A DNA stretch of 64,000 nucleotides from a candidate division WOR-3 bacterium. GTDB lineage: Bacteria; Hydrothermota; Tepidihabitantia; SM23-42. The stretch covers positions 8,943-72,942 of the forward strand of contig DRIG01000095.1 of NCBI GenBank assembly GCA_011052815.1. The letters run 5' to 3'. A program made the translations under genes and the position numbers. Each line of letters begins with the position of its first letter. The stretch's first letter is position 1. Shown in pieces: positions 18,680 to 56,649 of the stretch. The notes beneath the pieces were generated by a model. That model ran no database searches and was not told the origin of the DNA. It worked only from the letters and a program-made list of their open reading frames with translations.

Positions 18680-19714
18680 TTAAAATCCTATTGTCACGGA
18701 TATCCTGTGAGTCGAGTCAAGGATGTCCATGTCAACATAAGCATAATCAACAGAAATGTCCCGGGAGCCGATCTTCATCTTCATACCGGCTCCAGCCGTA
18801 AACTTCTGGGTATCATAGTTCACTTTATACCCGCCGCGCAGAAAGAACATGTCAAAAAAGCCGTACTCGCATCCCACCTGAATCTTTTCTTCTCCGTCAT
18901 TCGGATGAATTCCATCCACCGAGACATCTAAATGGTGCTCATCACTCGTGAAAAAACCCTCCTCTTTATCAATGAGATTCAAGGCAAGACCCAACTTGAA
19001 CGCCATCGGTAAAGGAAAAGATTCTGTGGTAAGTCGGGCTTCAACATCAGGATTTCCATTGTAATCGGGCCAGGGGTCGGTCTGAACCACCAGATCATTG
19101 CCTGACAGCTGCATCCTGCCGCCGTAATTAACCAAACACATCCCCAATTTCATTCCCTTAAACGGAGTTTTCAGAATTGTTCCGACATCCAGAGCGCCTG
19201 TCGAGGCGGTTTCATTATGAAGGGTCTGTTGAATATATTTACCTGATAACCCGAGTGAAAGCTGGTTTGACAGAAACAGAGAAACGGTAAATCCGAGCAA
19301 TCCGTCGATATAATCGCAGGAAAGTCCTGTTCCCTCCGGTTCTTCAATCGTCGTCATCTCAAAGCTCGTTGAAAGAAATGAACCCCAAAGTCCGAAATTG
19401 ATTCTGGATGTCGGCAGAATAAAAGTAGCATAATCATAATTAAGATCAGCAAACCATTTGGTATGGCCTCCCAGGATATAAACCTTCTTCAATGCTGCTA
19501 TTCCTGCGGGATTATAGTATATGCCAGAGGGATCGTCCGCCAGAGCGACAAAAGCTCCGCCTCTACCCACAGGCCTTGCACCGAATTCGATCTTCAAGAA
19601 CGGTGCGGCGGTTGTGCCCACCTTATTGAAACCGTAGCCTGCAGCGGCGGTGATCAACAAAATGACATTCATCCATAAACTTCCGACTCTTCTCATCTGT
19701 GTAAAAAATCTCAT
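18680..19714 (-). CDS. PorV/PorQ-family T9SS-associated outer-membrane beta-barrel.
   Basis: Signature GARPVGRGGAFVALADD near the N-terminus. Immediately downstream of a large T9SS cargo gene. Confidence 0.6.
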   Translation of the reverse strand: MRFFTQMRRVGSLWMNVILLITAAAGYGFNKVGTTAAPFLKIEFGARPVGRGGAFVALADDPSGIYYNPAGIAALKKVYILGGHTKWFADLNYDYATFILPTSRINFGLWGSFLSTSFEMTTIEEPEGTGLSCDYIDGLLGFTVSLFLSNQLSLGLSGKYIQQTLHNETASTGALDVGTILKTPFKGMKLGMCLVNYGGRMQLSGNDLVVQTDPWPDYNGNPDVEARLTTESFPLPMAFKLGLALNLIDKEEGFFTSDEHHLDVSVDGIHPNDGEEKIQVGCEYGFFDMFFLRGGYKVNYDTQKFTAGAGMKMKIGSRDISVDYAYVDMDILDSTHRISVTIGF

Positions 19715-19724: not shown

Positions 19725-22442
19725 CTATTTTACGATTATAAACTTACCCTTTGCTTTTGTCTGTTCGTCTGTTTTCACCACGAAGATGTATAGTCCATAA
19801 GCGACTTCAAGCCCGTATTTTGTCCGGAGATCCCAGAATTCATAACTGAGATTATTGTTGTGGTTGATTGTGGTTATATGCTCGCCGGCGATATTGTAAA
19901 TCTGAATTTCACATTCTTCCGGCAGGTTTGTAAACATAATCCGTCGATCATAAGGGGTATTTTCAAATCTTGAGTGAAGAATATAAGGATTGGGAACGAC
20001 CTTTACTGAGTTAAGATCAACAGCATCCGAGTTGATGGACGACGGAACCACTGTGAATTGATACTTTATCTTGGAAGAAAACGGTTTGTAAGTGATAATC
20101 GTGAACTCATCGCCTTCTGACGGAGCGATCGCGGTAGCGGGACCGTTTTGGGTCGCGAAATAAACAGCCTCTCCTTTATTATTCCAGCATCCGATTTGAT
20201 CGACAAACCCATAGCTTACGCCAGTAGGATTAGAATTATAGCCTGCTCCGCCCGGAATAAGATCCCAGCCTTCTGGTCCGAAAAGGGGATTACCGGGGTA
20301 AGCATAAGCATAATCCACAAGCCAGGTCGAATCACTGACATCAATTGGATTAAGGGTATCAGTAATATCATATACCCTGATCGGAATTTGGATCGGCGAG
20401 TAATTACCGCCAAAACCATCATCAATCCGGACTGTAGCAGGGTTGTTGTGATCTACGACAATCCGAAAATCGGCATTGCCACTGATGTAAGTATAGATCG
20501 GACCCATAGAGCCGACATAACCGGTCCACCAGGTGAAAGTACAGGTATCACCGCTCACTTTTGTCCAACCCAGGGATTTCACACCACTCTCAGTATTCAA
20601 GAGAGTCAATCTGAAACCATTCACCACCGGGATATTATCCAGTGATGAATCCGATAATTCCTGTTCTGAAAATATTGTTTCTTGAGCGGTCACGTCAAAG
20701 AGATTAAATGTTGTGGAATCCACCCAGGCCGTATCGACAAAAAGGGAATCATTGAAAGTTATCTCATAGGTATGGCCGAGAATCTCTGAGGGATTCAAAA
20801 TAGTAACAACTGCAAGCCCTTCACACGGACCTCCGATAGGTTCAAGTGTATCACCATTCTGGATATAGGCAGGGTTATAACCGGCTGGAGCGGCAGCAGG
20901 GATGACTGATACGATATTCGCCGCTTCGGGTCTTCCTCTGGGATTTTCATAGGAGGGTTCAAGTGAATCAGGATTTTGATTACCCTTGTCATAAGCCGCA
21001 ACACAATACCAATATTCAATGCCGTTATACACGGTGCTGTCAATAAAAGTATGCTGCAAGCCTGTTTCATTTCCCAGTGACTGATAGGGGAATGCCGGGT
21101 CGGTCCCGTAGATTGAGTCGATTAAATCAAATTGAGCAATGGGAACATAACCGACGACCTCTCCTTTTTCATTGGTTATCTCCTTGCCCCACGTCTTTCC
21201 CTGGTCATCACTTCGGTATATTTTATAACCCTCGAAATCATGTTTACCGCTTATGATATCGACTGATGACTCGGAAGGCTGTGGATTCCAGTAAAGAGTA
21301 ACCCTTTGGTCCCCCGGAATTCCGTAAACTGTAGGTGGAGAAGGAGGCCCGCTTCCCTGAAAATAATTATCCGCCATAATCAAGGCTCTATTCAGATTAT
21401 CGAATAAATCAGAAGAATCGCTGCCGCAGATCACGACAATCGTAAACTGCAGTGTATCACCCGGCGCTATTGTTTTAGGCCCAGACGACACAATATAATT
21501 ATAGGCGCTTGTTGAATCCGGCGGCAATGATTGCACGAACGAAGGATCATCGATATGAATATCATCGCCGTGGAAATAGAGTGAAGAATCGATATTCGGA
21601 TCAGAAGGGTCGGAGATTATTATCGGGTAAAGTCTGTAATCGTCACTCGGTTCATCCTGTTTTCGATAATAATGGAAGTCCGTGATTTCCTGATTAAGAA
21701 ATCCCACACCGATCATTCCAAGTGACTGCCATGGTTCCTGAGGGACACCGTCTGCGTCCCAGTAATAAACAAACGTCACCACGGAATCGCGATATAATCC
21801 GATGTAATCATGCATATCATAATCACAACGGAAATTACCGCGAAATCCTAAATAGAGATCATTGAGGGGAGTATTGCGGGTGTTATAGATCTTAAAATCA
21901 TAAAATATGAAATCCTGGGCGTAAATTCTGCCGTAGGAATAACCGGATTGGTTTACCTGGATACCGAAGACATCCTGATCATTAAAAATACAGAACAAAT
22001 CCTGATCAGAAGTAAACTCTCCCTCAACCTCCTCACCGGTCTCAAGATCGCGTCGGTATGGTCCTGGCCAGAAACTTCCGCTGCCGGTTTCAGGCCAGGT
22101 ATCGACATTGTCAGAGGTCGCGAAAATAGGTGTGCCGTCGGGAGTCGTTACATCGCCCGAGTATAAAGAACCATTTGAGCCCTCAAGCGGCGCCCATTCC
22201 GGAGCGGCAAGATCAAGGAACGACTCGATAACCGTATCGTTGCGCGCCGCAAGAAATCCCAATCCCGGACAATATTGATGCTGAAACGGCGCTGAGTTAG
22301 GCCAATGGAATGCCGGAGTAAAGTAGTGTAGATTCGCAATAAGACCGAAATTAGAGGTTACATTGGACAATTCCCCTTTGTCGGAAACACCGACTGCTTT
22401 GTCGGCTTCAGGATATAACAATAAAAATATGATAAAAATCAT
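19725..22442 (-). CDS. Large (905 aa) secreted protein with a T9SS C-terminal domain.
   Basis: Signal peptide. Ends ...GLYIFVVKTDEQTKAKGKFIIVK. Confidence 0.55.
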   Translation of the reverse strand: MIFIIFLLLYPEADKAVGVSDKGELSNVTSNFGLIANLHYFTPAFHWPNSAPFQHQYCPGLGFLAARNDTVIESFLDLAAPEWAPLEGSNGSLYSGDVTTPDGTPIFATSDNVDTWPETGSGSFWPGPYRRDLETGEEVEGEFTSDQDLFCIFNDQDVFGIQVNQSGYSYGRIYAQDFIFYDFKIYNTRNTPLNDLYLGFRGNFRCDYDMHDYIGLYRDSVVTFVYYWDADGVPQEPWQSLGMIGVGFLNQEITDFHYYRKQDEPSDDYRLYPIIISDPSDPNIDSSLYFHGDDIHIDDPSFVQSLPPDSTSAYNYIVSSGPKTIAPGDTLQFTIVVICGSDSSDLFDNLNRALIMADNYFQGSGPPSPPTVYGIPGDQRVTLYWNPQPSESSVDIISGKHDFEGYKIYRSDDQGKTWGKEITNEKGEVVGYVPIAQFDLIDSIYGTDPAFPYQSLGNETGLQHTFIDSTVYNGIEYWYCVAAYDKGNQNPDSLEPSYENPRGRPEAANIVSVIPAAAPAGYNPAYIQNGDTLEPIGGPCEGLAVVTILNPSEILGHTYEITFNDSLFVDTAWVDSTTFNLFDVTAQETIFSEQELSDSSLDNIPVVNGFRLTLLNTESGVKSLGWTKVSGDTCTFTWWTGYVGSMGPIYTYISGNADFRIVVDHNNPATVRIDDGFGGNYSPIQIPIRVYDITDTLNPIDVSDSTWLVDYAYAYPGNPLFGPEGWDLIPGGAGYNSNPTGVSYGFVDQIGCWNNKGEAVYFATQNGPATAIAPSEGDEFTIITYKPFSSKIKYQFTVVPSSINSDAVDLNSVKVVPNPYILHSRFENTPYDRRIMFTNLPEECEIQIYNIAGEHITTINHNNNLSYEFWDLRTKYGLEVAYGLYIFVVKTDEQTKAKGKFIIVK

Positions 22443-22452
22443 TTTGACTCCT

Positions 22453-24975
22453 TTATTGTAATTTTATTCTCATCCCCGCCTTAACGGCACGACGGGGACC
22501 GACATAAGAAGGATTCATTATGTAGTCCTTTGAACCCATAAGCCCGCCTTCTGACTCGCCTGAATCCCATGGTTCACCACTTCTTGGATAGACATAAAGA
22601 GGATTTTTATGATCTGTCAGATTCGTCCCTTTCACAAAAAATTCCAACACAGTTCCGCCTATTTTGAACCCCTGATATGCAATGGCGTCAAACGAATATT
22701 CCCATCCCATCCTTGCTGAATTCTGTTCGACAACAACACCTTCGCTGATATACGGAGTATACGGCAAACCACTGGCAGCGGTGACATTGAAACTCAATCC
22801 CCCTCCTTGTCCGAAGAGAATTTTAAGATTACTCGACAAGGTGTGTCGGCGGTCAAAATCAAGGAAATATTCTTTCAATCTTTCCGGCATCCCGGTGTAT
22901 ACATCATAAAATCCCTGCATTGCAAAAGAATGATTCCCCCGTGCCACCTGATAGGTATAATTGAAACTGAAACCGAAGTGTGAAACGACCTTCCGATTTA
23001 TCGTAACATCAATACCCTGAACACTGCCGAAATCATCATTTGTATATATGATGTAATCGTAAGGGAAACTTCTCACCTCGGTGGTGGCAAGTAAATTTTT
23101 GATATCTTTGAGGAAGAGTGTAATATCAACACCGTAGATCTGCTGAATCGCATATTTAATTCCAACTTCATATGCCGTGGTCCGTTGCGGTTCGATACGT
23201 GGATTACCGACCAATCCATAACGAGGTATACTTTCGGGGTGGGCGATGTAGTTACCGTTAAAATACATTATCTCATAAGGAGGCATCTGGAAGAAATACC
23301 CATAGGCAAAATGCAACATCGCATTATCCGTAATCGGATGGGACAAGCCGAAGCGCGGGGACAATTGATATTTAGGTTCCACCTCTGTGGACGGAGATGT
23401 GGGGTCTTCAATGTCCTCCCACATAACCGTCTTCGGGAAGCAGTAATCAAAACGTAAACCTAAATTCGCCACTAAAGAACGATGTTCGATTTTATCCTGC
23501 AGGAAAACCGCACCATCCATAGGAGTTCGTTGATAATTTTGATAAACCACCGCCCCTCTCGTAAAAAGTTGCTCACGTTTATCAAGAAAAAAATCATGGT
23601 GATTATGTTCGATCCCCCATTTCAGGTTGTGCACTCTGGCGAAATGAAGAGTGAAATCCATTTTAACGACATACTGCTTCGTCGTTGCGAATTGTCTGTA
23701 TATCGGATATCCGGAAACATAGAATTCAGAATAGTTGTCATATACCGGTTCAATAATGGTATCATCACTTAGACCGGGCACCGCTGTTTCGACGCTGTCT
23801 ACAAGGTATCCGACACGGAGGTTGTAGAAAAACGAACCAGCGGGGGCATGGTTGATTCCGACGATCGCCCGCAAATTCTTCCTGGTGGTTACAAGATAGT
23901 TTTCATAGATATATTTATAACGATGACTATAATTCTGTGTCTCTTCATTTACATATTGTCCGTCAATGAAAAGCTTAAGATTCCCGCCGAATTTCCTGGT
24001 TAATTTACCGTTCAGAGAATAAGAAGATTCGTAGCCGAACGGCAGATACGATTCCTCATTTGAATAGTTGCCGCTGAAGGAAAACTTTAAACGCCGGTCA
24101 AAGGGAATCGGCCCCATAACCGCGGCGTTTATCTCTCCAAGAAACGGAGCATCTAAATATTGAGGGTTATACTCGGAGATGTCCGATGAATCCCGATGGG
24201 CGTCATATGCGGTGCTGTCAAGGCTGTTCATCCAATCTTTTTTTCTGTATGGTGATGGATTGAGCATGAAAGAAGTATATTCAAGATAAGTAGAAATCCT
24301 CTCCCCGCCTTCCGGGGTTACGATGTTAACTACACCACTCATCACATTACCGTATTCGGCATTAAAGGTGCCTGACAGGAGCGACATTTCAGAAATAATA
24401 TTCTTATCAAAAATCGGACTGCTTCCCAGCAGTGGATTCGACACCTCAATACCGTCGATGTAATAAGCGAGCTCCCCGCTTCGTCCCCCACGTATATGAA
24501 GTTCACCGGCGCCGTCGGTCGTCACTCCTCCTTGAAGTACAATCACCTCCAGTGGTTTTTCAACGGGCAAGATATCCATTTCACTGCGTGTTATCCGTGC
24601 CTCTTTGGAAGTCATATCGACCTCAATAATCGGACGCTCCGCGACAACGACAACTGGATTCTCCATCTCAATCACAGTGGTCTGTAATTCGAAATTCAAC
24701 AAGGTGGTTCTATCCGTGTAGACCTGAACCTGCTGTTTAATCTCAGCTCGATATCCAATCATCGAAGCTTCAACCTCATAGGTACCCGGCGGAACATTCA
24801 GGATGAAATAATAACCGTTTTCATCAGTGGCACCTCCGATCCCCAGGTCAGGAATAAAGACATCAACACCGACAAGGGGTTCATTGGTTTCAGCATCCTT
24901 TACTGTTCCACTTATTTTACCTACGGTACCTCCGAAAAGAAAAAGCGGTAATAAGATAAAAATTATTTTGTTCAT
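22453..24975 (-). CDS. TonB-dependent-receptor-like outer-membrane protein with an N-terminal carboxypeptidase-regulatory-like domain. Start revised to the ATG at 24975.
   Basis: After a signal peptide (MNKIIFILLPLFLFGG): a CarbopepD_reg-like domain (GTVKDAETNEPLVGVDVFI...NVPPGTYEV), then a plug-like region (HIRGGRSGE...YYIDGI), then a long beta-barrel. An RBS precedes the internal ATG. Confidence 0.65.
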   Translation of the reverse strand: MNKIIFILLPLFLFGGTVGKISGTVKDAETNEPLVGVDVFIPDLGIGGATDENGYYFILNVPPGTYEVEASMIGYRAEIKQQVQVYTDRTTLLNFELQTTVIEMENPVVVVAERPIIEVDMTSKEARITRSEMDILPVEKPLEVIVLQGGVTTDGAGELHIRGGRSGELAYYIDGIEVSNPLLGSSPIFDKNIISEMSLLSGTFNAEYGNVMSGVVNIVTPEGGERISTYLEYTSFMLNPSPYRKKDWMNSLDSTAYDAHRDSSDISEYNPQYLDAPFLGEINAAVMGPIPFDRRLKFSFSGNYSNEESYLPFGYESSYSLNGKLTRKFGGNLKLFIDGQYVNEETQNYSHRYKYIYENYLVTTRKNLRAIVGINHAPAGSFFYNLRVGYLVDSVETAVPGLSDDTIIEPVYDNYSEFYVSGYPIYRQFATTKQYVVKMDFTLHFARVHNLKWGIEHNHHDFFLDKREQLFTRGAVVYQNYQRTPMDGAVFLQDKIEHRSLVANLGLRFDYCFPKTVMWEDIEDPTSPSTEVEPKYQLSPRFGLSHPITDNAMLHFAYGYFFQMPPYEIMYFNGNYIAHPESIPRYGLVGNPRIEPQRTTAYEVGIKYAIQQIYGVDITLFLKDIKNLLATTEVRSFPYDYIIYTNDDFGSVQGIDVTINRKVVSHFGFSFNYTYQVARGNHSFAMQGFYDVYTGMPERLKEYFLDFDRRHTLSSNLKILFGQGGGLSFNVTAASGLPYTPYISEGVVVEQNSARMGWEYSFDAIAYQGFKIGGTVLEFFVKGTNLTDHKNPLYVYPRSGEPWDSGESEGGLMGSKDYIMNPSYVGPRRAVKAGMRIKLQ

Positions 24976-25109
24976 AATGCTCCTTTGATCTTTGATATTA
25001 ATAAAACCGACACCACAAAGGTGCACGAACGGCCTTTGTATTCTGCAACACATTTTGTTTATTTTATAGGATTTCGTTATTTTTATGTTACCGAATAAAG
25101 CCAACCAGA

Positions 25110-25793
25110 TTATCTTATAAGAACAACTTTCTCGGTTAACCTGTAATTCTCTCCTGATATCCGCACAAAATAAACACCAGCTGGAACCGATCGACCTTTT
25201 TCATCTGTGCCATCCCATGGTATGATCGTTTTCTCGGAAAAACAGGCATCTGTTAATCTTTTGACTGTCCGGCCGTTACTGCTGAGAATTTCCAGTTTAA
25301 AAGTCGACGTCTGCACTCCATCACCCAAATTATAAAACGGCTGAATCTTGATCTCGGTTCTGTTTTGAAAAGGATTCGGTTGAACCATCAACTTGAAAGT
25401 CTCATTGGAAAAACAACAATCAGTCTCTGCTGCGCCGACTACGACCGTCCCCTCTTCATTTACCGCTGTCCAGCCGCTGTGGAACAAAGTCTGTCCGCCG
25501 ATTACATAAAGTTTGCCGCCGACCACTCCGATCCCGAATGTGCTCACTGCTGCGGGCAGTGAAGTACTGGATATCCAGGTATCAGCGGTCGCATCATAGA
25601 CTTCCAGACTGTCTATCTCTCCATTGGTATCTTCGCCACCGACGACATAGACTTTTTCTCCAACCGTAGCCACGCCCAAGAAGCTCCGCGGCGTGGGCAT
25701 AGCCGCTTTTGTTTGCCAGTTAATGCCGAACAACATTGAAGACGACAAACAGCTCAATAAAAATATCATAACAATTCTTTTATTCATCATCAC
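25110..25793 (-). CDS. Small secreted Kelch-repeat protein with a T9SS C-terminal domain.
   Basis: Two Kelch-like motifs (VYVVGG / LYVIGG). Ends KGRSVPAGVYFVRISGENYRLTEKVVLIR. Confidence 0.55.
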   Translation of the reverse strand: MMMNKRIVMIFLLSCLSSSMLFGINWQTKAAMPTPRSFLGVATVGEKVYVVGGEDTNGEIDSLEVYDATADTWISSTSLPAAVSTFGIGVVGGKLYVIGGQTLFHSGWTAVNEEGTVVVGAAETDCCFSNETFKLMVQPNPFQNRTEIKIQPFYNLGDGVQTSTFKLEILSSNGRTVKRLTDACFSEKTIIPWDGTDEKGRSVPAGVYFVRISGENYRLTEKVVLIR

Positions 25794-37361: not shown

Positions 37362-38633
37362 CTATTCCTCCTTACCGATTGCTTTCTGAATCTCAGCCTT
37401 GGAGCTATAATAATCCTTCAATGCTGAGAGGTAATTTGTTCGTGCCTGCATTGCGGCAAGCTGGGCATCCATATATTCAAGATTTGTCGCAAGCCCGTTC
37501 TTGTAACGTTTTTCAATAATTTCAAATGCCTTTTCCGCCTGACTTACATTCTTTTCGGCGGTGAGGAGTGCCTCTTTTGCCGCAACAAAATTCAAATATG
37601 CTTTTTTGACTTCAAGCCTTATCGCCTTCTTCAAATTTTCCAGTGCAAGCTCAGCCTCCCGCAATTGCAACGCCGCATCTCTTTGCTGGTAGAAATTTTT
37701 AAAACCGGTGAATATCGGAACCTGGAAACCGATGTTGAATATAACATTAGAACCCCATTCGCCGCTCGTAAAACTGAATGGTTTTTTACGCTCATAGGTC
37801 GCTCCGGCGACGACCACGGGAAGATTGGAGCGACGCATAATCGCTTCGTTCAACCGTGCGATTTCCTTTACTTTCATCAAATTTTTGAGCTCTATTCGAT
37901 TAAGGAGTGCTTCGTCGACCAACTCCTCAAGAACAAAATCTTCATCAACCATCTTCAGCTCTCCGGAAATAGTGAAGTCGGCTGCCAAATCCATACCCAG
38001 CAGCATCTTGAATCCCTCACGGGCGAGATTTAATCCGTGTTCGGCCTTGATGACCCGGGGTTTTAAATTTGAAACCTGAACCCGCGCCCGCAGTAGATCA
38101 AACTGCGATACCAGCCCTGCTTTATAGCGTTCTTCAACAGCCCGGGCATGGCGCTTAAGCTGAGCAAGGCTCTTTTGTGAAACCTGAACCATGTCTTCGA
38201 GCACCAGAAGACCGTAAAAAGCATCGCTCACAGCACAACGGAGTTCTTGCTTTTTACGAACCAGTTTGAGCTCGGCGATCTCTTTCCCCAGATCAGAAAT
38301 CTTATAAGCATTATAAATCTTACCCCAGGCAAAGAGCACCTGCTGCAGGGAAACCTGCAGACTGTAGTTTTCATTCTGTCCCATTGGTATCGGCATACTG
38401 TCAAGCTGAAACACCGGGACATCGGTCAGATAAGCGTATCCGCCGGTTGCGGAGATGCTGGGATAAAACGCCGAGATTGCTTTATTGACACCGGTCTGTG
38501 CTCTTGCATACTCGAGCTCAAGCTGCTCGATTTCAGGATTATTCTCCAATGCATAATCAACCGCCTGAACCAAAGTGAAATGGAGGGTATCACCACCACT
38601 GATACTTATAAGCAAAATTAAAATTACTGACAT
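37362..38633 (-). CDS. TolC-like outer-membrane efflux protein.
   Basis: Signal peptide and two OEP repeats of coiled-coil/beta structure. Abuts the adaptor gene. Confidence 0.8.
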   Translation of the reverse strand: MSVILILLISISGGDTLHFTLVQAVDYALENNPEIEQLELEYARAQTGVNKAISAFYPSISATGGYAYLTDVPVFQLDSMPIPMGQNENYSLQVSLQQVLFAWGKIYNAYKISDLGKEIAELKLVRKKQELRCAVSDAFYGLLVLEDMVQVSQKSLAQLKRHARAVEERYKAGLVSQFDLLRARVQVSNLKPRVIKAEHGLNLAREGFKMLLGMDLAADFTISGELKMVDEDFVLEELVDEALLNRIELKNLMKVKEIARLNEAIMRRSNLPVVVAGATYERKKPFSFTSGEWGSNVIFNIGFQVPIFTGFKNFYQQRDAALQLREAELALENLKKAIRLEVKKAYLNFVAAKEALLTAEKNVSQAEKAFEIIEKRYKNGLATNLEYMDAQLAAMQARTNYLSALKDYYSSKAEIQKAIGKEE

Positions 38634-46413: not shown

Positions 46414-47610
46414 TCAGCGGTTCAGAAGAACACGTTCAATTCGGGGTAGAGCCCATATAAGTTCTTCTTTTTTTATGGTCAACGGCGGGGCGAACCGGAC
46501 GACCATCGCGTGGGTCTCTTTCGCAAGAATCCCCTGGTTCATCAATTTCTCACAGTACGGACGTGCCTTCTTCTTCAATTCAACGCCGATCAATAAACCC
46601 TTACCCCTTACTTCTTTAATAATCGGGCTCTTAATCTTACGCAGTTCCTCCATAAACCAGTTTCCCAGACGGAAGGCGCGCTGAGCCAGTCTCTCTTTAA
46701 GGATAACCTCAAGCGCTGCAATCCCTATGGCTGAGGCTAAAGGGTTGCCGCCGAATGTGGAGCCGTGGTCACCGGGATGGAGTACATTCATAATCCGATT
46801 ATTACACAGAATCGCTGAAACCGGATAAAAGCCGCCGCTTAAGGCTTTACCCACGATGGTGATATCGGGTTTCACCCGCTCATAATTACAGGCGAATAAT
46901 CTACCGGTGCGGCCGAGCCCGGTCTGTATTTCATCTGCAATGAATAAGACATTATTTTTCTTACAGATCCTGGCGCATTCCCGAAGGTAACCGTTGTCAG
47001 GAACAATCACACCTCCCTCACCCTGAATCGGCTCAACCAGGAAACCGACTGTATTCCTGGTGATCGCCCTGCTCAAAGCCCGTGGGTCGTTATAAGGGAT
47101 GATCTTAAAACCGGGAGTAAACCCGCCGAATCCTTCGCGGTATTGTGCTTCTGATGAGAAACCGATGATCGTTGTTGTTCGACCATGAAAATTATTTTCA
47201 CAAACAATAATCTCCGCCCGATTCTTTGTAACCTTTTTCTTCAAATACCCCCATTTCCGCGCCACTTTAATAGCGGTCTCAACCGCCTCGGCACCGGAAT
47301 TCATCGGCAGAGCCTTTTCATAACCAGTGAGTGTGCAGAGTTTTTTCAAAAAAGGACCCATCCGGTCATTATGGAACGCCCTTGAAGTAAGGGTCAACCT
47401 CGCCGCCTGTTTTTTCAACGCCTTGACGATATGCGGATGACAATGTCCCTGATTAAGAGCCGAGTACGCACTCAGCATATCAAGATACTTATTCCCTTCG
47501 ACATCCCAGACCCACACTCCTTTTCCTTTTGTCAGAACGACCGGTAAAGGTTTGTAATTGCGGGCGCTGAATTTCTCGGTCAACTTTATAAAAGCCTTAT
47601 TTTTTTTCAT
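46414..47610 (-). CDS. Ornithine aminotransferase-like class-III aminotransferase. ATG at 47610 with GGAGGA RBS preferred over the tool's GTG at 47637.
   Basis: YLDMLSAYSALNQGHCHPHIV matches the OAT family. Confidence 0.8.
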   Translation of the reverse strand: MKKNKAFIKLTEKFSARNYKPLPVVLTKGKGVWVWDVEGNKYLDMLSAYSALNQGHCHPHIVKALKKQAARLTLTSRAFHNDRMGPFLKKLCTLTGYEKALPMNSGAEAVETAIKVARKWGYLKKKVTKNRAEIIVCENNFHGRTTTIIGFSSEAQYREGFGGFTPGFKIIPYNDPRALSRAITRNTVGFLVEPIQGEGGVIVPDNGYLRECARICKKNNVLFIADEIQTGLGRTGRLFACNYERVKPDITIVGKALSGGFYPVSAILCNNRIMNVLHPGDHGSTFGGNPLASAIGIAALEVILKERLAQRAFRLGNWFMEELRKIKSPIIKEVRGKGLLIGVELKKKARPYCEKLMNQGILAKETHAMVVRFAPPLTIKKEELIWALPRIERVLLNR

Positions 47611-47689
47611 AAATCCTCCATTCTGAATAAATTCCACTACGTCAGATTATACTTAATTTTGCTGATTTTTCAAGAGAAGACAGAGGATT

Positions 47690-51214: not shown

Positions 51215-51242
51215 TTGACAACAGTAGTGAATTTTATATAAT
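51215..51242 (+). promoter_or_regulatory. Consensus sigma-70 promoter for the aminotransferase / phosphomutase / deiminase gene string.
   Basis: TTGACA 51215-51220, N16, TATAAT 51237-51242. AGGAGG RBS at the ATG at 51260. Confidence 0.5.
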
Positions 51243-51259: not shown

Positions 51260-52672
51260 ATGAAAAAAATAGACTATACTTCACCGGAAATAGGTCCCAA
51301 TGCAGAGAAATTGATTGAACGGGATAAAAAGGTCATGTTCGGTGCCCATACACGAACACGGGAAATCCCGCTTGTCGTCGATTATGCGAAAGGTGCACGT
51401 ATTACTGATGTAGACGGTAAAACCTATCTTGATTTCGGAGCGGGATTCGCCGTCGTCGGTACAGGACACTGTCATCCTGAAGTCATCGCCGCGGTTAATA
51501 AACAGATGAACCGTTTAATTCATATCTCAGGCTGTGATTTTTATTATGAACCCCAGATTCAACTTGCTGAAAAACTTTTTCAAATCACTCCCGGTAAATT
51601 TGAAAAACGTGTATACTTTGGAAACTCCGGTGTTGAAGGCGTCTCCGCAACGATAAAGATCGCCCGTCACTTTACCCGCCGGCCGCGTATGATAAGCTTC
51701 CTCGGAGCGTTCCACGGCAGAACATTTTCCGGTATGTCCATGGCCGGCAGTAAAAAAATACAACGTGCTCATTTCTCACCCCTGATACCCGAGGTCACGC
51801 ACACACCTTATCCCTATTGCTATCATTGTATTTTCAACGAAACATATCCCCATTGCATTCGAAAGGAATTCGAAGGTATTCCCCTGGTTTACTGTCTGTC
51901 ATATTTAACCGACGTAATATTTGAAAGACTTATTGATCCGGAAGATGTCTCACTGGTCCTCGTGGAACCGATTCAAGGTGAAGGTGGTTATATCGTACCA
52001 CCGAAAGAATTTCTTCCCGCCCTCCGTAAAATCGCCGATAAGTACGGAATAATCCTCGCTTTTGACGAAATTCAGTGCGGTCTGGGAAGAACCGGTAAAT
52101 GGTTCGCCTGCGACCATGTAGATGTGGTGCCTGACATAATAATAATAGCTAAAGCAATCGCTTCGGGTCTGCCGATGAGTGCCACTGTAAGCCGTGCCGA
52201 ACTACAGGATCCGGAACTTGACGAGCGTGCATGGCATCACGGTGCTCATGGTTCGACCTTCGGCGGCAATCCGGTTATAGCCGCCGCCGGTATCGCCTCC
52301 CTTAAATTAATAGAGAACGGTCTGATCGAGAACGCCGCAAAGATCGGTGAATTTTTAAAACAGGGGATGATTGAAATTATGAATCGACATACAATCATCG
52401 GTGAAGTACGAGGTCTTGGACTCATGGTCGGGCTTGAACTTGTGAAGGACAAAAAAACAAAAGAAAATTTCCCCAGGGTCGTGACTGATAACGGGAAGAA
52501 CATCAAAGAAGTGATAACCGGGGAATGCTTTAAAAGAGGATTGATACTGTATGGCGCGGGCTTCAACTCCCTGCGTATGTCCCCTCCTTTAATCATAACC
52601 AAAGATGACGCAGAGGAAGCATTACGAATCATCGAAGAAGTCATCACCTGGGTGGAGAAACAGATTTTATGA
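51260..52672 (+). CDS. Class-III (GabT-like) PLP aminotransferase with a Cys/His-rich insertion.
   Basis: Aminotransferase class III pattern. Insertion PYPYCYHCIFNETYPHC. Confidence 0.75.
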   Translation: MKKIDYTSPEIGPNAEKLIERDKKVMFGAHTRTREIPLVVDYAKGARITDVDGKTYLDFGAGFAVVGTGHCHPEVIAAVNKQMNRLIHISGCDFYYEPQIQLAEKLFQITPGKFEKRVYFGNSGVEGVSATIKIARHFTRRPRMISFLGAFHGRTFSGMSMAGSKKIQRAHFSPLIPEVTHTPYPYCYHCIFNETYPHCIRKEFEGIPLVYCLSYLTDVIFERLIDPEDVSLVLVEPIQGEGGYIVPPKEFLPALRKIADKYGIILAFDEIQCGLGRTGKWFACDHVDVVPDIIIIAKAIASGLPMSATVSRAELQDPELDERAWHHGAHGSTFGGNPVIAAAGIASLKLIENGLIENAAKIGEFLKQGMIEIMNRHTIIGEVRGLGLMVGLELVKDKKTKENFPRVVTDNGKNIKEVITGECFKRGLILYGAGFNSLRMSPPLIITKDDAEEALRIIEEVITWVEKQIL

Positions 52673-54009
52673 TCAATCCGACAATCTTCAGGGAATATGA
52701 TATACGGGGTATCGCTGAAACCGATTTGACGGATGAAAATGTCTATCTCTGCGGTCGCGGATTCGGGAGCTATTATATCTCCCAGGGAACGAAAAAAGTA
52801 ATCATCGGCCGTGATGTCAGGTTATCATCACCGAGGATTACCGAAGCACTGCAAAAGGGTTTGAATGATTCCGGTTGCGAGGTGATTGAAATCGGAGAAG
52901 TACCCACGCCGATCCTTTATTTTGCACTCTATTATTATAATATAGGAAGCGGAATAATGATCACTGCAAGCCACAATCCTAAGGAATTCAACGGTTTCAA
53001 AATCTGTTTGAACAAAAGCACCATCTACGGTGAAGAACTTCAGAAATTAAGGGGGATTATAGAAGAAAAGAAATTTTCATCAGGGAAAGGTTCGGTCGAG
53101 AAACGGAATATAATTCCGGCTTACATCGATCATGTCACTCAACAGGTAAAAATCAAACGGAAGCTAAAGGTGATTTTCGACACCGGTAATGGAACATGCG
53201 GGCCGATAATCGAGCAGATGATGAAAAGGATGCCTGTTGAATATGATATTCTCTTCAAGGAGCCCGATGGAAACTTTCCAAATCACCTGCCTGACCCGAC
53301 AGTGGTCAAGCATATTTCAAAATTGATAGAGGCTGTAAAGAAAAACGAAGTCGATTGCGGCATCGGATTCGACGGTGACGGAGACAGAATCGGGGTGATC
53401 GATGAAAACGGTGAGATAGTATGGGGTGATATTCTTCTCGCGATCTACGCCGAATCGGTTCTGAAGATAATACCCGGGGCGAAGATAATATTTGAAGTGA
53501 AATGCTCCAAGGGATTGATTGAAAGAATTGAAGAATTGGGCGGCACACCTTTAATGTACAAAACCGGCCATTCTCTCATCAAGGCGAAAATGAAACTTGA
53601 GAATTCACCTTTGGCCGGTGAGATGTCGGGCCACATCTTCTTTGCTGATAAATATTACGGGTTCGATGATGCACTCTATGCCTGTCTCAGGTTGCTTGAA
53701 ATATTGGGCGACAACGAAAAATTATCCGCATTAGCCAACAAAGTCCCAAAGTACTATTCAACCCCGGAAATACGGATTGAAACAACCGATGAGAAAAAAT
53801 TCGAGATCGTCGAAAGATTCAAAGAATCTTTTAAAAAAACTTACAAGGTTATTGACATCGACGGCGTCAGGATAGATTTCTCTGACGGCTGGGGACTTAT
53901 CAGACCGTCGAATACCCAGCCGGTGCTTGTCCTGAGATTTGAAGCAAAGACCGAAAAAAGGTTGGAAGAAATAAAAAGATTGTTTTTTGACAAATTAGAA
54001 AAAATGTAA
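52669..54009 (+). CDS. Phosphomannomutase/phosphoglucomutase family enzyme.
   Basis: TASHNP phosphoserine loop, GFDGDGDR metal loop, GEMSGH sugar-binding loop. Confidence 0.85.
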   Translation: MINPTIFREYDIRGIAETDLTDENVYLCGRGFGSYYISQGTKKVIIGRDVRLSSPRITEALQKGLNDSGCEVIEIGEVPTPILYFALYYYNIGSGIMITASHNPKEFNGFKICLNKSTIYGEELQKLRGIIEEKKFSSGKGSVEKRNIIPAYIDHVTQQVKIKRKLKVIFDTGNGTCGPIIEQMMKRMPVEYDILFKEPDGNFPNHLPDPTVVKHISKLIEAVKKNEVDCGIGFDGDGDRIGVIDENGEIVWGDILLAIYAESVLKIIPGAKIIFEVKCSKGLIERIEELGGTPLMYKTGHSLIKAKMKLENSPLAGEMSGHIFFADKYYGFDDALYACLRLLEILGDNEKLSALANKVPKYYSTPEIRIETTDEKKFEIVERFKESFKKTYKVIDIDGVRIDFSDGWGLIRPSNTQPVLVLRFEAKTEKRLEEIKRLFFDKLEKM

Positions 54010-54030
54010 TAAAAATAATAAGGAGGTATT

Positions 54031-56649
54031 ATGTCTGTTCTGTTCTGCACCGTGATTCTGTTGATTCAGACAAATGATCCATTCCTCCCCCGATGGATGA
54101 CACCTGAAGAGAGCTTGATGATTGACAAAATCGGGCAGGGACATATCATCACCGCCCCTCCCGGTGGATGGGTCGAAACTCCGGGTGAATTTGAACCGTT
54201 GAAAGGTGTCTTCATCACCTGGATATGGAATCAATACAATTCCGTATTCCGGGAGATAGTGCGTGAAGTCGTGGAAGTATCAAGGGTATATATTGTGGTT
54301 GGCTCGAGCAGTGAGCAGACCAACATCACAAATTATCTCCAGAGTAATGGTATACCACTTGATTCGGTGACATTCTACATCTGGCCCAGAAATTCAATAT
54401 GGATGCGTGATTACGGACCCTGGTTTATCCGTAAAGAGGATAATTCAGAGGGGATTGTTGACTTCATCTATAATAGACCAAGACCGAGTGATGATACCAT
54501 TCCCTGGCGTATCGGTCAGCAATGGGGGATCCCGGTCTATGGTTCACCCCTTACCCATCCCGGTGGCAACTTTATGGTCGACGGTCTGGGTACCGGGTTT
54601 TCCAGCAACTTAATCTATGATGAAAATCCATCATACACCCCTGAGGAAATCGATTCCCTTATGCTTGAATACAACGGCCTTGAACAGTTTATTGTACTGG
54701 ACTCGATGATAACCGAATATACCAAACATATCGACCTCTGGGCAAAGGTACTGAATGATACGCTTGTGATGGTCGGCGAATATACCAATACAAACCATCC
54801 TGACTATCAAACGCTCAACAACAACGCCGATTCGATCTCCCGTTGTAAAAATCGTGAAGGTCAACCCTACCGTGTGGTGCGCATTCCCATGCCCTATTCC
54901 ACCTCAAACGCTCCTCCTTCTTATCTCAACTCACTCTTTGTCAACAATAAAGTACTCGTGCCGCTCTGGGGAGAACCGGAAGATGATACGGCCCTCTTCA
55001 TCTACCAGCAGGCATTACCCGGATACACCATCGTGGGAATCGACTGTTCTTCAATGGCGGGTTCAGGAGGTGCGATACACTGCATCACAATGCAGGCACC
55101 GAGCCCCAGATTCATACATATTCTCCATTATCCTTTAACAGATACTGAAGACACCTTGAATCCCTATCGTGTTCGGGCGCGTATAACCACTTCCAACACA
55201 CTCCAGACCGATTCAACCGTGATTTTCTATAAAATCAACAGCGGTTCTTTCACCACCACTCCCCTCTCAGTGGTAAGCGACACACCGGGTGTCTATGCAG
55301 GCTATATACCCTCTCAATCCGCCGGTGACACAGTACATTATTATCTCCTTGTGAAAAACAACGATGGTGTCAGACGGACCTCACCGGTCCATGCGCCTGC
55401 ACATATCTACTCATTCCTCGTGGGTCCTGACGCCGTTCCGCCGGAAATAATCCATACACCGTTGAGTGACCAACTCGTATCTAATTGGCCCGCTCATGTT
55501 ACCGCCACGGTAACGGATAATTCAGGAGTGGACTCAGTAATTCTTGAATATTCAATAAACAGTTCTCCTCAGTCTCCGATATTGATGCAGAATACAGGCG
55601 GCGATCTCTACGAAGCGGACTTCGCGGGAACCGTCAATGTAGGCGATTCAATATTCTATCGTATAAAAGCGGTCGACGGTTCGGTAAATCACAATACAGC
55701 ATACCATCCGCCTTCAGGTTACCATTCCTTCGCAATCATTGACAAAATTCCTGTCGGCATATGGGAGCCCGACCAGACACCAATTACAAGTACACCCCTC
55801 ATAAACTTCCTCGACAGTGCGGGAATCGCCTATGAATACAACACCTCTTACCCGACATTTGATCTATATACCTGTATATTCATATGCCTGGGTGTCTACT
55901 CAAACAACTATCAATTGACCAATGCACAGGCGAACGATCTGGTTTCATACCTGAACAACGGCGGTAGATGCTACATGGAAGGCGGTGACGCCTGGTGCTA
56001 TGATCCGGCAGGAAGTATCTATCGAAGTTATTTCGGAATAAGCCAGGTCGACGACGGCAGCACGATGACCGGTAATATCAACGGAGTCAGCGGGACATTC
56101 ACTGAAGGGATGTCTTTCGCCTATGCAGGTGAAAACAGTTATATGGATCGGATCGCCCCTGTCTCACCGGCGTTTACAATATTCACGAACGGCGGATACA
56201 ACCGCACTGTTGCATACGATGCCGGCACATACCGAACCATCGGTTCGTCGTTTGAACTCGGCGGCTTGACTGACGGCGCCTCACCAAGCACGAAATCAGA
56301 ACTCATCCAGCAGATTCTTATCTTCTTCGGTATAATTGTCGGGTCAGAAGAAGAACAAAGATTCGAAAAATCCCAGGTCGACCTTACTTCTGTCACGCCG
56401 AATCCCGTACGCCGTGACGTTACATTCAATATCAGTCTTCAGAAAAAATCCGACGTCAGAATCGATATCTACAACGTACTCGGTCAGCGGGTTAAATCTC
56501 TGGAATTCAAATCGCTCAAAGCGGGCGGCCATAATATAGAATGGAATTTACACGACGATAGAAATAGAATGCTGGCGCAGGGAGCGTATTTCTACCGTGT
56601 TACAACGGATAAGGGAGTAACGACAGGAAAAATCCTTTTGATAAAATAA
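54031..56649 (+). CDS. Agmatine deiminase / Porphyromonas-type peptidyl-arginine deiminase family enzyme, fused to extra beta domains and a T9SS C-terminal domain.
   Basis: Signal peptide. An AguA-like N-terminus (TPGEFEPLKGVFITW). Catalytic Cys motif GGAIHCITMQ at about residue 345. About 400 aa of Ig-like domains. Ends ...GAYFYRVTTDKGVTTGKILLIK. Confidence 0.7.
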   Translation: MSVLFCTVILLIQTNDPFLPRWMTPEESLMIDKIGQGHIITAPPGGWVETPGEFEPLKGVFITWIWNQYNSVFREIVREVVEVSRVYIVVGSSSEQTNITNYLQSNGIPLDSVTFYIWPRNSIWMRDYGPWFIRKEDNSEGIVDFIYNRPRPSDDTIPWRIGQQWGIPVYGSPLTHPGGNFMVDGLGTGFSSNLIYDENPSYTPEEIDSLMLEYNGLEQFIVLDSMITEYTKHIDLWAKVLNDTLVMVGEYTNTNHPDYQTLNNNADSISRCKNREGQPYRVVRIPMPYSTSNAPPSYLNSLFVNNKVLVPLWGEPEDDTALFIYQQALPGYTIVGIDCSSMAGSGGAIHCITMQAPSPRFIHILHYPLTDTEDTLNPYRVRARITTSNTLQTDSTVIFYKINSGSFTTTPLSVVSDTPGVYAGYIPSQSAGDTVHYYLLVKNNDGVRRTSPVHAPAHIYSFLVGPDAVPPEIIHTPLSDQLVSNWPAHVTATVTDNSGVDSVILEYSINSSPQSPILMQNTGGDLYEADFAGTVNVGDSIFYRIKAVDGSVNHNTAYHPPSGYHSFAIIDKIPVGIWEPDQTPITSTPLINFLDSAGIAYEYNTSYPTFDLYTCIFICLGVYSNNYQLTNAQANDLVSYLNNGGRCYMEGGDAWCYDPAGSIYRSYFGISQVDDGSTMTGNINGVSGTFTEGMSFAYAGENSYMDRIAPVSPAFTIFTNGGYNRTVAYDAGTYRTIGSSFELGGLTDGASPSTKSELIQQILIFFGIIVGSEEEQRFEKSQVDLTSVTPNPVRRDVTFNISLQKKSDVRIDIYNVLGQRVKSLEFKSLKAGGHNIEWNLHDDRNRMLAQGAYFYRVTTDKGVTTGKILLIK

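What the first reader, a model, noticed from the sequence alone, without database searches (positions are those of the whole stretch)
54031..56649. T9SS-exported agmatine/peptidyl-arginine deiminase homologue
The 872-aa protein carries a signal peptide and an agmatine-deiminase/PAD-family catalytic domain with the Cys motif GGAIHCITMQ. It also has about 400 aa of Ig-like beta domains and a classic T9SS C-terminal domain.

This is the architecture of the Porphyromonas gingivalis peptidyl-arginine deiminase, a secreted citrullinating enzyme. The enzyme here could modify arginine residues or agmatine outside the cell. It is not embedded in a polyamine (aguB/speB) cluster.
Basis: partly seen in the sequence, partly recalled or inferred. 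Interest (0 to 1): 0.5.

Follow-up and report, generated by a model that had tools for sequence, protein, structure and literature searches.

The report
Secreted PPAD-type arginine deiminase, WOR-3
This gene from an uncultured WOR-3 bacterium encodes an exported relative of the Porphyromonas gingivalis enzyme that converts arginine at peptide ends to citrulline; it carries an extra domain of unknown function, and it belongs to a large environmental family, although the literature still calls the Porphyromonas enzyme unique.

Summary
The 872-aa ORF at 54031-56649 (+) is real. An identical protein is already deposited from a candidate division WOR-3 MAG.

- **Enzyme type.** The N-terminal 460 residues are PPAD-type, not AguA-type. 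The best solved relative is P. gingivalis PPAD (E 4e-63, against 1e-17 for agmatine deiminases). All five catalytic residues are kept. So are the Arg152/Arg154/Tyr233 residues that bind a free alpha-carboxylate in PPAD; three annotated AguA enzymes have an unrelated, longer loop at that site.
- **Domains.** The "400 aa of Ig-like domains" is wrong in part. There are two Ig-like domains, then a 200-aa alpha/beta domain with a glutamine-amidotransferase-like fold and no Pfam family, then a T9SS C-terminal domain.
- **Export.** The signal peptide is unusually short and uncharged, as in other exported proteins of this genome. A PorV/PorQ-family gene lies in the window.
- **Distribution.** Short (about 568 aa) and long (about 870 aa) forms sit at the same syntenic position in WOR-3 genomes. 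PPAD-type genes with the arginine pair occur in at least 597 species genomes across FCB-group phyla.

Most likely function: a surface or secreted deiminase acting on C-terminal or free arginine. It is a new architectural variant of a known kind, of moderate interest.

The parts
54020..54026 (+). Shine-Dalgarno-like AAGGAGG, 4 nt upstream of the ATG
   Evidence: Read directly from the sequence.
54031..56649 (+). Whole ORF, 872 aa plus stop codon: PPAD-type deiminase with added domains
   Evidence: It is identical to P0001, 'MAG TPA: T9SS type A sorting domain-containing protein [candidate division WOR-3 bacterium]'.
54031..54069 (+). Residues 1-13: a short, uncharged hydrophobic N-terminus, taken to be a minimal Sec signal peptide
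   Evidence: The pattern M-xx-LLC-xx-LL-xx-Q is conserved in 26 of 28 aligned family members. Two members (P0104, P0119) have classical signal peptides instead. The same style of N-terminus is seen in other exported-looking ORFs of the window. Relatives in other phyla have classical signal peptides. This is an inference; no predictor was available.
54070..54150 (+). Residues 14-40: conserved N-terminal segment (LPxWMTPEE...IG..H) ahead of the region that aligns to the PPAD crystal chains
   Evidence: L19, P20, T24 and E27 are invariant or nearly so in alignments A1 and A3. Its function is untested.
54151..55107 (+). Residues 41-359: guanidino-group-modifying catalytic domain. Key residues in query numbering, with PPAD equivalents in brackets: W124 (W127), D127 (D130), R149 (R152), R151 (R154), Y230 (Y233), T231 (I234), H233 (H236), D235 (D238), N300 (N297), C351 (C351).
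   Evidence: The phmmer alignment to 4yt9 was mapped to the residue roles given in PMC4893104. hmmalign and MAFFT checks agree. Pfam PF04371 E 1.3e-53.
55108..55422 (+). Residues 360-464: first Ig-like domain, equivalent to the PPAD Ig-like fold (IgLF)
   Evidence: It aligns to residues up to 409 of chain 4yt9. It is a beta-sandwich in the AlphaFold2 model, with pLDDT about 80-90.
55423..55743 (+). Residues 465-571: second Ig-like domain, absent from PPAD and from the 568-aa WOR-3 forms
   Evidence: It is part of the insertion seen in alignment A1. It is a beta-sandwich with pLDDT 85-92. Its relation to the first Ig-like domain is weak (hhalign E 1e-4, probability 57%). Pfam hits to Big_7 and CBM_56 are below threshold.
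55744..56343 (+). Residues 572-771: 'domain X', an alpha/beta domain with a class-I glutamine-amidotransferase-like fold, no Cys nucleophile, and a conserved EGGDxWxYD motif
56383..56646 (+). Residues 785-872: T9SS type A C-terminal sorting domain
   Evidence: PF18962 31.8 bits (cut-off 27), PF13860 32.1 (27), TIGR04183 38.9 (23). It is a beta-sandwich with pLDDT 80-89.
51260..54009 (+). Two co-directional upstream genes: a class-III aminotransferase (51260-52672) and a PGM/PMM-family mutase (52669-54009). They overlap each other by 4 nt, and the second ends 21 nt before the deiminase ATG. They may form an operon with it.
   Evidence: Pfam and NCBIfam hits. The same order is seen in WOR-3 loci L004, L006-L010 and L012-L014, but not in other phyla. 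A 12/12 sigma-70-like promoter match lies at 51215-51242; this is a consensus match only.
18680..19714 (-). PorV/PorQ-family outer-membrane protein. It shows that a T9SS component exists in this genome.
   Evidence: NF033709 162.4 bits against a cut-off of 90. It is flanked by further proteins with a T9SS C-terminal domain at 17660-18637, 19725-22442 and 25110-25793.

Best explanation
The gene encodes an exported deiminase of the PPAD type.

**Export (inferred).** A short Sec signal takes the protein to the periplasm. The C-terminal domain then directs it through a type IX secretion system to the cell surface or the medium.

**Catalysis (inferred from residue conservation).** The propeller-like catalytic domain uses Cys351 as nucleophile, with His233, Asp235, Asp127 and Asn300. 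It hydrolyses the guanidino group of arginine to a ureido group (citrulline) and releases ammonia.

**Substrate (inferred).** Arg149, Arg151 and Tyr230 occupy the positions of the PPAD residues that bind a free alpha-carboxylate. The expected substrates are therefore arginines at the C-terminal end of peptides, such as those left by extracellular proteases, and free L-arginine. Agmatine and internal protein arginines are not expected substrates. The plausible physiological gains are ammonia release and a change in peptide charge during extracellular protein degradation.

**Extra domains (function unknown).** This WOR-3 sub-lineage has an added second Ig-like domain and a GATase1-like 'domain X'. 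They most likely act as a spacer, binding or oligomerisation module rather than a second catalytic site.

Shown here: homology, residue conservation, domain folds, the C-terminal domain, a PorV-family gene, and synteny. Inferred: substrate, localisation, physiological role, and the role of domain X.
For: 1. **Closer to PPAD than to agmatine deiminases.** phmmer gives 216.7 bits (E 4e-63) over residues 41-454 against PPAD, 120 bits against 1xkn, and about 66 bits against the agmatine deiminases 2jer and 2ewo. blastp gives 32.6% identity over 417 aa. Foldseek on the full-length model ranks PPAD first, at E 1e-31 and target-normalised TM 0.67, against 1e-17 to 1e-20 for agmatine deiminases.
2. 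**Catalytic and clamp residues.** W127, D130, R152, R154, Y233, H236, D238, N297 and C351 of PPAD are all matched in the query. Their roles are taken from PMC4893104.
3. **The arginine pair is absent from AguA.** Annotated AguA from E. faecalis and Listeria, and an aguB-linked enzyme from Cetobacterium, have FNAWGGLVDGLYFPW-type sequence where the query and PPAD have YNRPRPxDD. They also have an extra insertion of roughly 13-22 residues before N297 and no Ig-like domain.
4. **Fails AguA membership.** The protein scores 93 bits against TIGR03380 (cut-off 381.8) and 97 against NF010070 (cut-off 483).
5. **Export.** The C-terminal domain scores above curated cut-offs. A PorV/PorQ-family gene and three other proteins with the same domain lie in the window. 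Relatives in other phyla have classical signal peptides.
6. **Selection on the clamp.** All 80 genome-encoded relatives examined keep the YNRPR core of the clamp motif, 75 of them the full YNRPRPxDD, and 141-146 of 150 representatives at 50% identity keep both arginines.
7. **Vertical inheritance.** The gene sits in a conserved position in WOR-3 genomes.
Against: - No enzymatic data exist for any member outside Porphyromonas.
- PPAD residue Ile234, which lines the pocket wall, is Thr here.
- The sequence around the catalytic Cys (GGAIHCIT) looks more like AguA (GGGNIHCIT) than PPAD (DALHCRT).
- The signal peptide lacks a charged n-region and could not be checked with a predictor.
- Only one T9SS component (PorV/PorQ family) was seen. 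WOR-3 is not among the phyla for which the reviewed literature suggests a T9SS (PMC11285876).
- No Arg-specific protease partner was looked for or found.
- The full-length AlphaFold2 model is poor in part of the catalytic domain (residues 120-180, pLDDT below 35), so pocket geometry was not examined.
Confidence: 0.65

Rival explanations
1. It is an extracellular agmatine deiminase, as several database names suggest ('agmatine deiminase family protein'). It would convert environmental agmatine to N-carbamoylputrescine.
For: Pfam PF04371 covers both activities. NCBIfam AguA models give sub-threshold hits. JGI and NCBI name relatives 'agmatine deiminase'. The motif around the catalytic Cys resembles AguA.
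Against: - It scores 93 bits against the 381.8 cut-off of the AguA equivalog model.
- It keeps the two arginines and the tyrosine that bind a carboxylate in PPAD. Agmatine has no carboxylate.
- It lacks the AguA-specific loops and has the PPAD Ig-like domain.
- There is no aguB, carbamate kinase or putrescine carbamoyltransferase among the annotated flanking genes.
Confidence: 0.07
2. It is the same enzyme chemistry, but the physiological substrate is a small molecule with a free arginine carboxylate rather than protein fragments. Candidates are free L-arginine or beta-Asp-Arg units derived from cyanophycin. The enzyme would then serve nitrogen or arginine scavenging, with the citrulline taken up.
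For: PPAD itself deiminates free L-arginine (PMC4893104). The carboxylate clamp is compatible with any arginine that has a free alpha-carboxylate. An ornithine-oxo-acid transaminase gene (46414-47637, TIGR01885 559.9 against a cut-off of 378.4) lies 6 kb away. The gene is a vertically inherited core-like gene in WOR-3 rather than an accessory virulence gene.
Against: Nothing in the sequence separates free arginine from peptide substrates. No arc genes or citrulline or ornithine transporters were seen next to the gene, and there is no recurrent neighbour across phyla. The cyanophycin idea comes from general knowledge only and was not tested.
Confidence: 0.2
3. The protein is not secreted through a T9SS. 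The weak N-terminal signal or a non-functional C-terminal domain would leave it in the cytoplasm or periplasm, where it would act on intracellular substrates.
For: The N-terminus has no basic n-region and only about 11 hydrophobic residues. WOR-3 is not an established T9SS phylum.
Against: - The same minimal N-terminus occurs on other proteins with a T9SS C-terminal domain and on outer-membrane-type proteins in the window.
- Two family members, and relatives in other phyla, carry classical signal peptides.
- The C-terminal domain is conserved and above threshold.
- A PorV/PorQ-family gene is present.
Confidence: 0.06

Closest known systems
Porphyromonas gingivalis peptidylarginine deiminase, PPAD (PDB 4YT9, 5AK7, 6I0X)
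   Same: - The catalytic domain is followed by a tightly associated Ig-like domain and a T9SS C-terminal domain.
- The Asp/His/Asp/Asn/Cys catalytic set, the Arg152/Arg154/Tyr233 carboxylate clamp and Trp127 are all conserved.
- It is the best sequence hit and the best fold hit.
   Different: - Identity is only 32.6%.
- Ile234 is Thr, and the motif around the Cys is GGAIHCIT rather than DALHCRT.
- About 310 extra residues (a second Ig-like domain plus the GATase1-like domain X) lie between the Ig-like domain and the C-terminal domain.
- The signal peptide is minimal.
- The host is a free-living, uncultured WOR-3 bacterium, not a host-associated Bacteroidota.
- No activity data exist.
Agmatine deiminase AguA (E. 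faecalis 2JER; TIGR03380)
   Same: Same superfamily and Pfam family (PF04371). The catalytic residues are the same, and the GG.IHCIT motif around the Cys is similar.
   Different: - AguA is cytoplasmic, with no Ig-like or C-terminal sorting domain.
- It lacks the Arg pair, having NAWGG...FPW instead.
- It has an extra loop before the Asn.
- It is encoded in agu clusters with a permease and carbamate kinase, or with aguB.
- The query scores far below the AguA equivalog cut-off.
Uncharacterised PPAD-type proteins of FCB-group bacteria (Ignavibacteria, Zixibacteria, Cloacimonadota, Saprospiraceae, Chitinophagales, Calditrichota, Gemmatimonadota and others)
   Same: They share the catalytic plus Ig-like core and the YNRPRPxDD motif. 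Of the 74 whose C-terminus lies within the contig, 44 matched my narrow, WOR-3-derived model of the T9SS sorting domain. Four of them, including a Candidatus Effluviviacota MAG, have the same architecture: catalytic domain, two Ig-like domains, domain X, C-terminal domain.
   Different: Catalytic-domain identity is 33-42%. They have classical signal peptides and varied C-terminal additions. They do not share the WOR-3 synteny.
Non-catalytic GATase1-like domains: the GATase1-like domain of GH42 beta-galactosidases, STM3548 (2GK3), 3RHT, ThuA-like proteins, the IFT52 N-terminal domain
   Different: Identity is 11-15%. Domain X matches no Pfam family. It has its own conserved acidic and aromatic motif (E79, G80, D82, W84, D104, D135, E171 in domain numbering). 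It is found on T9SS cargo.

Membership tests
PPAD-type peptidylarginine deiminase | Guanidino-modifying catalytic set: Asp130, His236, Asp238, Asn297, Cys351 | tested here: met
   The query has D127, H233, D235, N300 and C351, aligned to PPAD by phmmer, hmmalign and MAFFT. Residue roles are from PMC4893104.
PPAD-type peptidylarginine deiminase | Carboxylate-binding Arg152 and Arg154 (plus Tyr233), which give specificity for C-terminal arginine | tested here: met
   The query has R149, R151 and Y230 within YNRPRPSDD. Three annotated AguA enzymes lack the motif. All 80 genome relatives keep its YNRPR core, 75 the full YNRPRPxDD.
PPAD-type peptidylarginine deiminase | Ig-like fold domain packed after the catalytic domain, reported absent from other guanidino-modifying enzymes | tested here: met
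   The alignment to 4yt9 continues to query residue 454. Residues 362-464 form a beta-sandwich in the model.
PPAD-type peptidylarginine deiminase | T9SS C-terminal sorting domain | tested here: met
   PF18962 31.8 bits against 27, and TIGR04183 38.9 against 23.
PPAD-type peptidylarginine deiminase | N-terminal Sec signal peptide | tested here: inconclusive
   The N-terminus is a 13-residue uncharged hydrophobic stretch. This pattern is conserved in the family and typical of this genome. No predictor was available.
PPAD-type peptidylarginine deiminase | Calcium-independent deimination of C-terminal peptidyl-arginine and free L-arginine | not testable with these tools
   This needs an enzyme assay.
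Agmatine deiminase AguA (TIGR03380 / NF010070) | Score above the curated equivalog cut-off | tested here: not met
   93.1 bits against 381.8, and 97.1 against 483.
Agmatine deiminase AguA (TIGR03380 / NF010070) | Genomic link to aguB, or to a putrescine carbamoyltransferase / carbamate kinase / antiporter cluster | tested here: not met
   The neighbours are an aminotransferase, a PGM/PMM mutase, ybaB and dnaX. Reference AguA genes sit in such clusters.
T9SS cargo (type A C-terminal domain) | T9SS machinery encoded in the same genome | tested here: inconclusive
   A PorV/PorQ-family protein is present (NF033709 162 bits against 90), together with other proteins carrying the same C-terminal domain. 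The core genes sprA, porK, porL, porM, porN and porU were not seen in the parts of the 64-kb window I annotated, and the rest of the genome could not be searched.
Class-I glutamine amidotransferase (catalytic) | Cys-His-Glu triad with the Cys at the nucleophile elbow | tested here: not met
   The fold matches. The position after strand 75-79 carries the conserved EGGDxW motif, with no conserved Cys. The structural superposition itself was not inspected residue by residue.

The most novel reading that the evidence does not exclude
PPAD-type exo-deiminases would be an ancestral, widespread extracellular enzyme class of the FCB group rather than a Porphyromonas invention. Domain X, a GATase1-like domain with no Pfam family, would be a true functional partner of the deiminase: a substrate-capture site or a second active site for arginine- or citrulline-bearing ligands. 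Two observations leave this open. The same architecture (catalytic domain, two Ig-like domains, domain X, C-terminal domain) recurs at about 40% catalytic-domain identity in at least two phyla. Domain X also has a strongly conserved acidic and aromatic surface motif.
Probability: 0.2. Interest if true: 0.6.

Novelty: new variant of a known kind. Interest (0 to 1): 0.42.

Why it matters
Reviews as recent as 2026 still describe PPAD as a unique bacterial citrullinating enzyme, with homologues reported only in P. gulae and P. loveana (PMC13539308, PMC6367333, PMC11756583). One preprint remarks that pPAD genes are more widespread than thought (10.1101/2020.06.13.150037).

This locus shows that an enzyme with the full set of PPAD features is a syntenic, vertically inherited gene in WOR-3: the catalytic set, the clamp for C-terminal arginine, the Ig-like domain and the T9SS sorting domain. 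Enzymes with the catalytic core and the clamp motif occur in hundreds of FCB-group species.

If they are active, extracellular citrullination of peptide ends, with ammonia release, would be a common step in environmental protein degradation. The virulence role in Porphyromonas would then be a later recruitment of that function. These proteins also offer many natural variants for studying PPAD specificity and inhibition. The fused domain X is an uncharacterised domain family worth describing.

Tried and rejected
- **Full-length AlphaFold2.** With a 28-sequence alignment the model was mediocre (mean pLDDT 64.9; catalytic residues 120-180 below 35). I used it only for domain boundaries and a coarse Foldseek ranking, not for pocket analysis.
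- **Fold search of domain X against afdb50.** The library was unavailable.
- **Pfam on domain X.** The fused domain and six other domain-X proteins gave no family at E <= 1 for the domain itself.
- **Context of other domain-X genes.** This was uninformative, and some of those genes may be fragments of larger genes broken in assembly.
- **Neighbours conserved across phyla.** The aminotransferase-mutase linkage is confined to WOR-3-type loci. All-against-all clustering of ORFs in 80 loci found no recurrent partner family. I therefore dropped the idea of a functional operon with arginine or ornithine metabolism, although an ornithine aminotransferase lies 6 kb upstream.
- **Lipoprotein reading of the conserved Cys6.** Rejected, because five residues are too few to precede a lipobox Cys.
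- **Longer N-terminus from an upstream start.** Excluded by the in-frame TAA at 54019-54021.
- **Second Ig-like domain as a duplicate of the first.** Support is weak only (hhalign E 1e-4, probability 57%).
- **Neighbour-joining tree.** The common ancestor of the query and PPAD spans 148 tips and excludes the three AguA sequences. The rooting was crude, so I do not lean on it.
- **Literature.** Searches for WOR-3 together with T9SS or PPAD returned nothing specific.
Full report
**Observation**

The ORF at 54031-56649 (+) is exactly as described: 872 codons. Its ATG is the first start after an in-frame TAA at 54019-54021, and AAGGAGG lies at 54020-54026. Pfam finds PAD_porph over residues 51-357 (E 1.3e-53). 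It also finds a T9SS C-terminal domain at 788-869, above the gathering cut-offs of PF18962 and PF13860. TIGR04183 is above its cut-off too. The motif GGAIHCITMQ is residues 346-355. An identical protein is already deposited from a 'candidate division WOR-3' MAG. Hundreds of relatives exist, mostly named 'agmatine deiminase family protein' or 'T9SS type A sorting domain-containing protein'. NCBI taxonomy now lists WOR-3 as the phylum Caldifarciminota.

**Which deiminase**

Against all PDB sequences the best matches are the five P. gingivalis PPAD entries (216.7 bits, E 4e-63, query residues 41-454). They are followed by the Chlorobium protein 1xkn (120 bits) and, much lower, by agmatine deiminases (about 66 bits). 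Identity to PPAD is 32.6% over 417 residues.

The chain index of 4yt9 plus 43 gives PPAD numbering. With that mapping the query keeps W127, D130, R152, R154, Y233, H236, D238, N297 and C351; only I234 differs, being Thr. The PPAD structure paper assigns D130, H236, D238, N297 and C351 to catalysis. It assigns R152, R154 and Y233 to binding the free carboxylate of a C-terminal arginine, and reports that mutating the two arginines impairs activity (PMC4893104).

To check that the arginine pair discriminates, I fetched three annotated agmatine deiminases: E. faecalis and Listeria aguA, and a Cetobacterium gene next to aguB. I aligned them with the query.
- They have FNAWGGLVDGLYFPWDQDD-type sequence where the query and PPAD have YNRPRPxDD.
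- They carry an extra insertion of roughly 13-22 residues before the catalytic Asn.
- They end right after the catalytic Cys, with no Ig-like domain.

The query also fails the AguA equivalog models by a wide margin (93 against 381.8 bits). Foldseek with a mediocre full-length model still ranks the PPAD structures first (E 1e-31, target-normalised TM 0.67), ahead of agmatine deiminases (1e-17 to 1e-20).

**Anatomy beyond the catalytic domain**

An alignment of 28 family members shows two length classes: about 568 aa, which is the PPAD architecture, and about 870 aa. The long class has an insertion of roughly 310 residues between the Ig-like domain and the C-terminal domain.

The first part of the insertion (residues 465-571) is a confident beta-sandwich. 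It is only weakly related to the first Ig-like domain (hhalign E 1e-4).

**Export**

The N-terminus (MSVLFCTVILLIQ) is short and uncharged.
- The pattern is conserved in 26 of 28 aligned members. The two members with longer N-termini have classical signal peptides.
- Several other exported-looking ORFs in the window begin the same way, including a 905-aa protein with a T9SS C-terminal domain.
- Relatives in other phyla have ordinary signal peptides.
- The window encodes a PorV/PorQ-family protein (NF033709 162 bits against a cut-off of 90), flanked by cargo with the C-terminal domain and a TonB-dependent receptor.
- A 2024 paper says T9SS may exist in several FCB phyla beyond Bacteroidota, though it does not list WOR-3 (PMC11285876).

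Export by a T9SS is thus well supported but not proven.

**Distribution and context**

In WOR-3 loci the order is class-III aminotransferase, PGM/PMM mutase, deiminase, then convergent ybaB. This order is conserved for both long forms (L004, L006, L007, L010) and short forms (L008, L009, L012-L014). dnaX follows ybaB in most of these loci. The two length classes are therefore positional orthologues, and the module made of the second Ig-like domain and domain X was gained or lost within the lineage. This synteny does not extend to other phyla, and no neighbour recurs across 80 loci.

An exhaustive HMMER search of 1.84 billion cluster representatives found 1095 with E <= 1e-30. All of the top 150 scored higher against the query than PPAD does, and 141-146 of them keep both arginines.

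The best 80 come from WOR-3, Cloacimonadota, Ignavibacteria, Zixibacteria, Bacteroidota (Saprospiraceae, Chitinophagales, Sphingobacteriales, Bacteroidales), Calditrichota, Gemmatimonadota, Krumholzibacteriota and others. All 80 keep the YNRPR core of the clamp motif, and 75 the full YNRPRPxDD. Four of them, including a Candidatus Effluviviacota MAG, share the full five-part architecture (catalytic domain, two Ig-like domains, domain X, C-terminal domain) at only about 40% catalytic-domain identity.

**Most likely mechanism**

The protein is exported by Sec and then by a T9SS. On the surface or in the medium it deiminates arginines that have a free alpha-carboxylate, meaning peptide C-termini and free L-arginine, to citrulline, and releases ammonia. 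The extra domains probably act as a spacer, binding or oligomerisation module.
- Shown: homology, residue conservation, folds, the sorting domain, a PorV-family gene, and synteny.
- Inferred: substrate, localisation, physiology, and the role of domain X.

I put this at about 0.65. The rivals are these:
- an extracellular agmatine deiminase (0.07), contradicted by the clamp, the missing AguA loops and the failed equivalog score;
- a mainly small-molecule substrate such as free arginine (0.2), which the sequence cannot separate from peptide substrates;
- no secretion at all (0.06).

**Comparison with what is known, and novelty**

The protein passes every sequence-testable defining feature of PPAD except a canonical signal peptide, and it fails the tests for AguA. 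The literature in the searchable library still calls PPAD unique, or limited to P. gingivalis, P. gulae and P. loveana (PMC6367333, PMC11756583, PMC13539308). [quoted passage not shown] I found no paper on PPAD-type enzymes in WOR-3 or other environmental FCB phyla.

The protein sequence itself is already in databases with generic names. I therefore rate it a new architectural variant of a known kind, of moderate interest. The interest lies in the family-level picture and in the uncharacterised domain X, not in a new mechanism.

**Limits**

There is no enzymology. No signal-peptide predictor was available. The alignment was too shallow for a good full-length model. The afdb50 library was unavailable. 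I could not scan whole WOR-3 genomes for T9SS core genes or for Arg-specific proteases.

Noticed in passing
window 1487-4297(-), 4294-5250(-), 11124-12005(+), 16378-17118(+), 19725-22442(-), 37362-38633(-), 54031(+): Many exported-looking ORFs of this WOR-3 genome start with a very short hydrophobic stretch and no Lys or Arg n-region (for example MIFLLFFLITKEE, MIFIIFLLLYPEAD, MLLLIVLLSQIE), even at the longest possible start codon. This looks like a lineage habit of minimal signal peptides. In the deiminase family the stretch is followed by a conserved Gln13, which recalls the Bacteroidetes 'Q-rule' (PMC5837995).
   Followed up: partly
window 17660-25793(-): A cluster of T9SS-related genes: a protein with the T9SS C-terminal domain (17660-18637), a PorV/PorQ-family protein (18680-19714), a 905-aa protein with the C-terminal domain and no other Pfam family (19725-22442), a TonB-dependent receptor with a CarboxypepD_reg domain (22453-25104), and a Kelch-repeat protein with the C-terminal domain (25110-25793).
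   Followed up: partly
window 46414-47637(-) and 51260-52672(+): Two class-III aminotransferases lie near the deiminase. The first passes the ornithine-oxo-acid transaminase equivalog model (TIGR01885 559.9 against 378.4). The second scores just under the 'acetyl ornithine aminotransferase family' cut-off (545 against 552) and sits upstream of the deiminase, separated from it by the mutase gene, in every WOR-3-type locus whose upstream flank was recovered. No functional link to citrulline or ornithine metabolism could be shown.
   Followed up: partly
window 51215-51242(+): A perfect sigma-70-type consensus (TTGACA, 16 nt, TATAAT; 12/12) lies 18 nt upstream of the aminotransferase start. It could drive an aminotransferase-mutase-deiminase transcript. 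A weaker 10/12 match lies at 53987-54016, just before the deiminase gene.
   Followed up: no
L019 (Ca. Effluviviacota MAG WJLY01000230.1), L027, L029, L059: The full architecture (catalytic domain, two Ig-like domains, domain X, C-terminal domain) recurs in distant lineages. Catalytic-domain identity is only about 40%, while domain X scores strongly against the WOR-3-derived domain-X profile (E 1e-76 to 1e-82). This suggests either an ancient fusion with repeated loss, or transfer of the module made of the second Ig-like domain and domain X.
   Followed up: partly
L046 (JAGMDE010000050.1, labelled 'Thermoplasmatales archaeon'): A PPAD-type gene (608 aa) with a bacterial-style signal peptide (MRKLAILSILISLLFIVSTFVNAQQ) sits on a contig assigned to an archaeal MAG. 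This is most likely a binning error rather than an archaeal PPAD.
   Followed up: no
L008 (CP070795.1) and L090 (CP070664.1): Several genes in these complete WOR-3 MAG chromosomes look truncated: ybaB 48 aa against 95, the PCC-domain gene 84 aa against 139, and strings of short ORFs before a domain-X gene. This suggests frameshift errors in the assemblies, so some apparently stand-alone domain-X proteins may be fragments.
   Followed up: no
window 1487-4297(-) and 14585-16345(+): A 936-aa TPR plus CHAT-domain protein lies at 1487-4297, and a BatD-family protein at 14585-16345. Neither is related to the finding.
   Followed up: no
(tool behaviour): Word-indexed searches with domain X alone did not return the 870-aa deiminases that contain it, although they are in the same database. 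Counts of proteins carrying domain X are therefore lower bounds.
   Followed up: no
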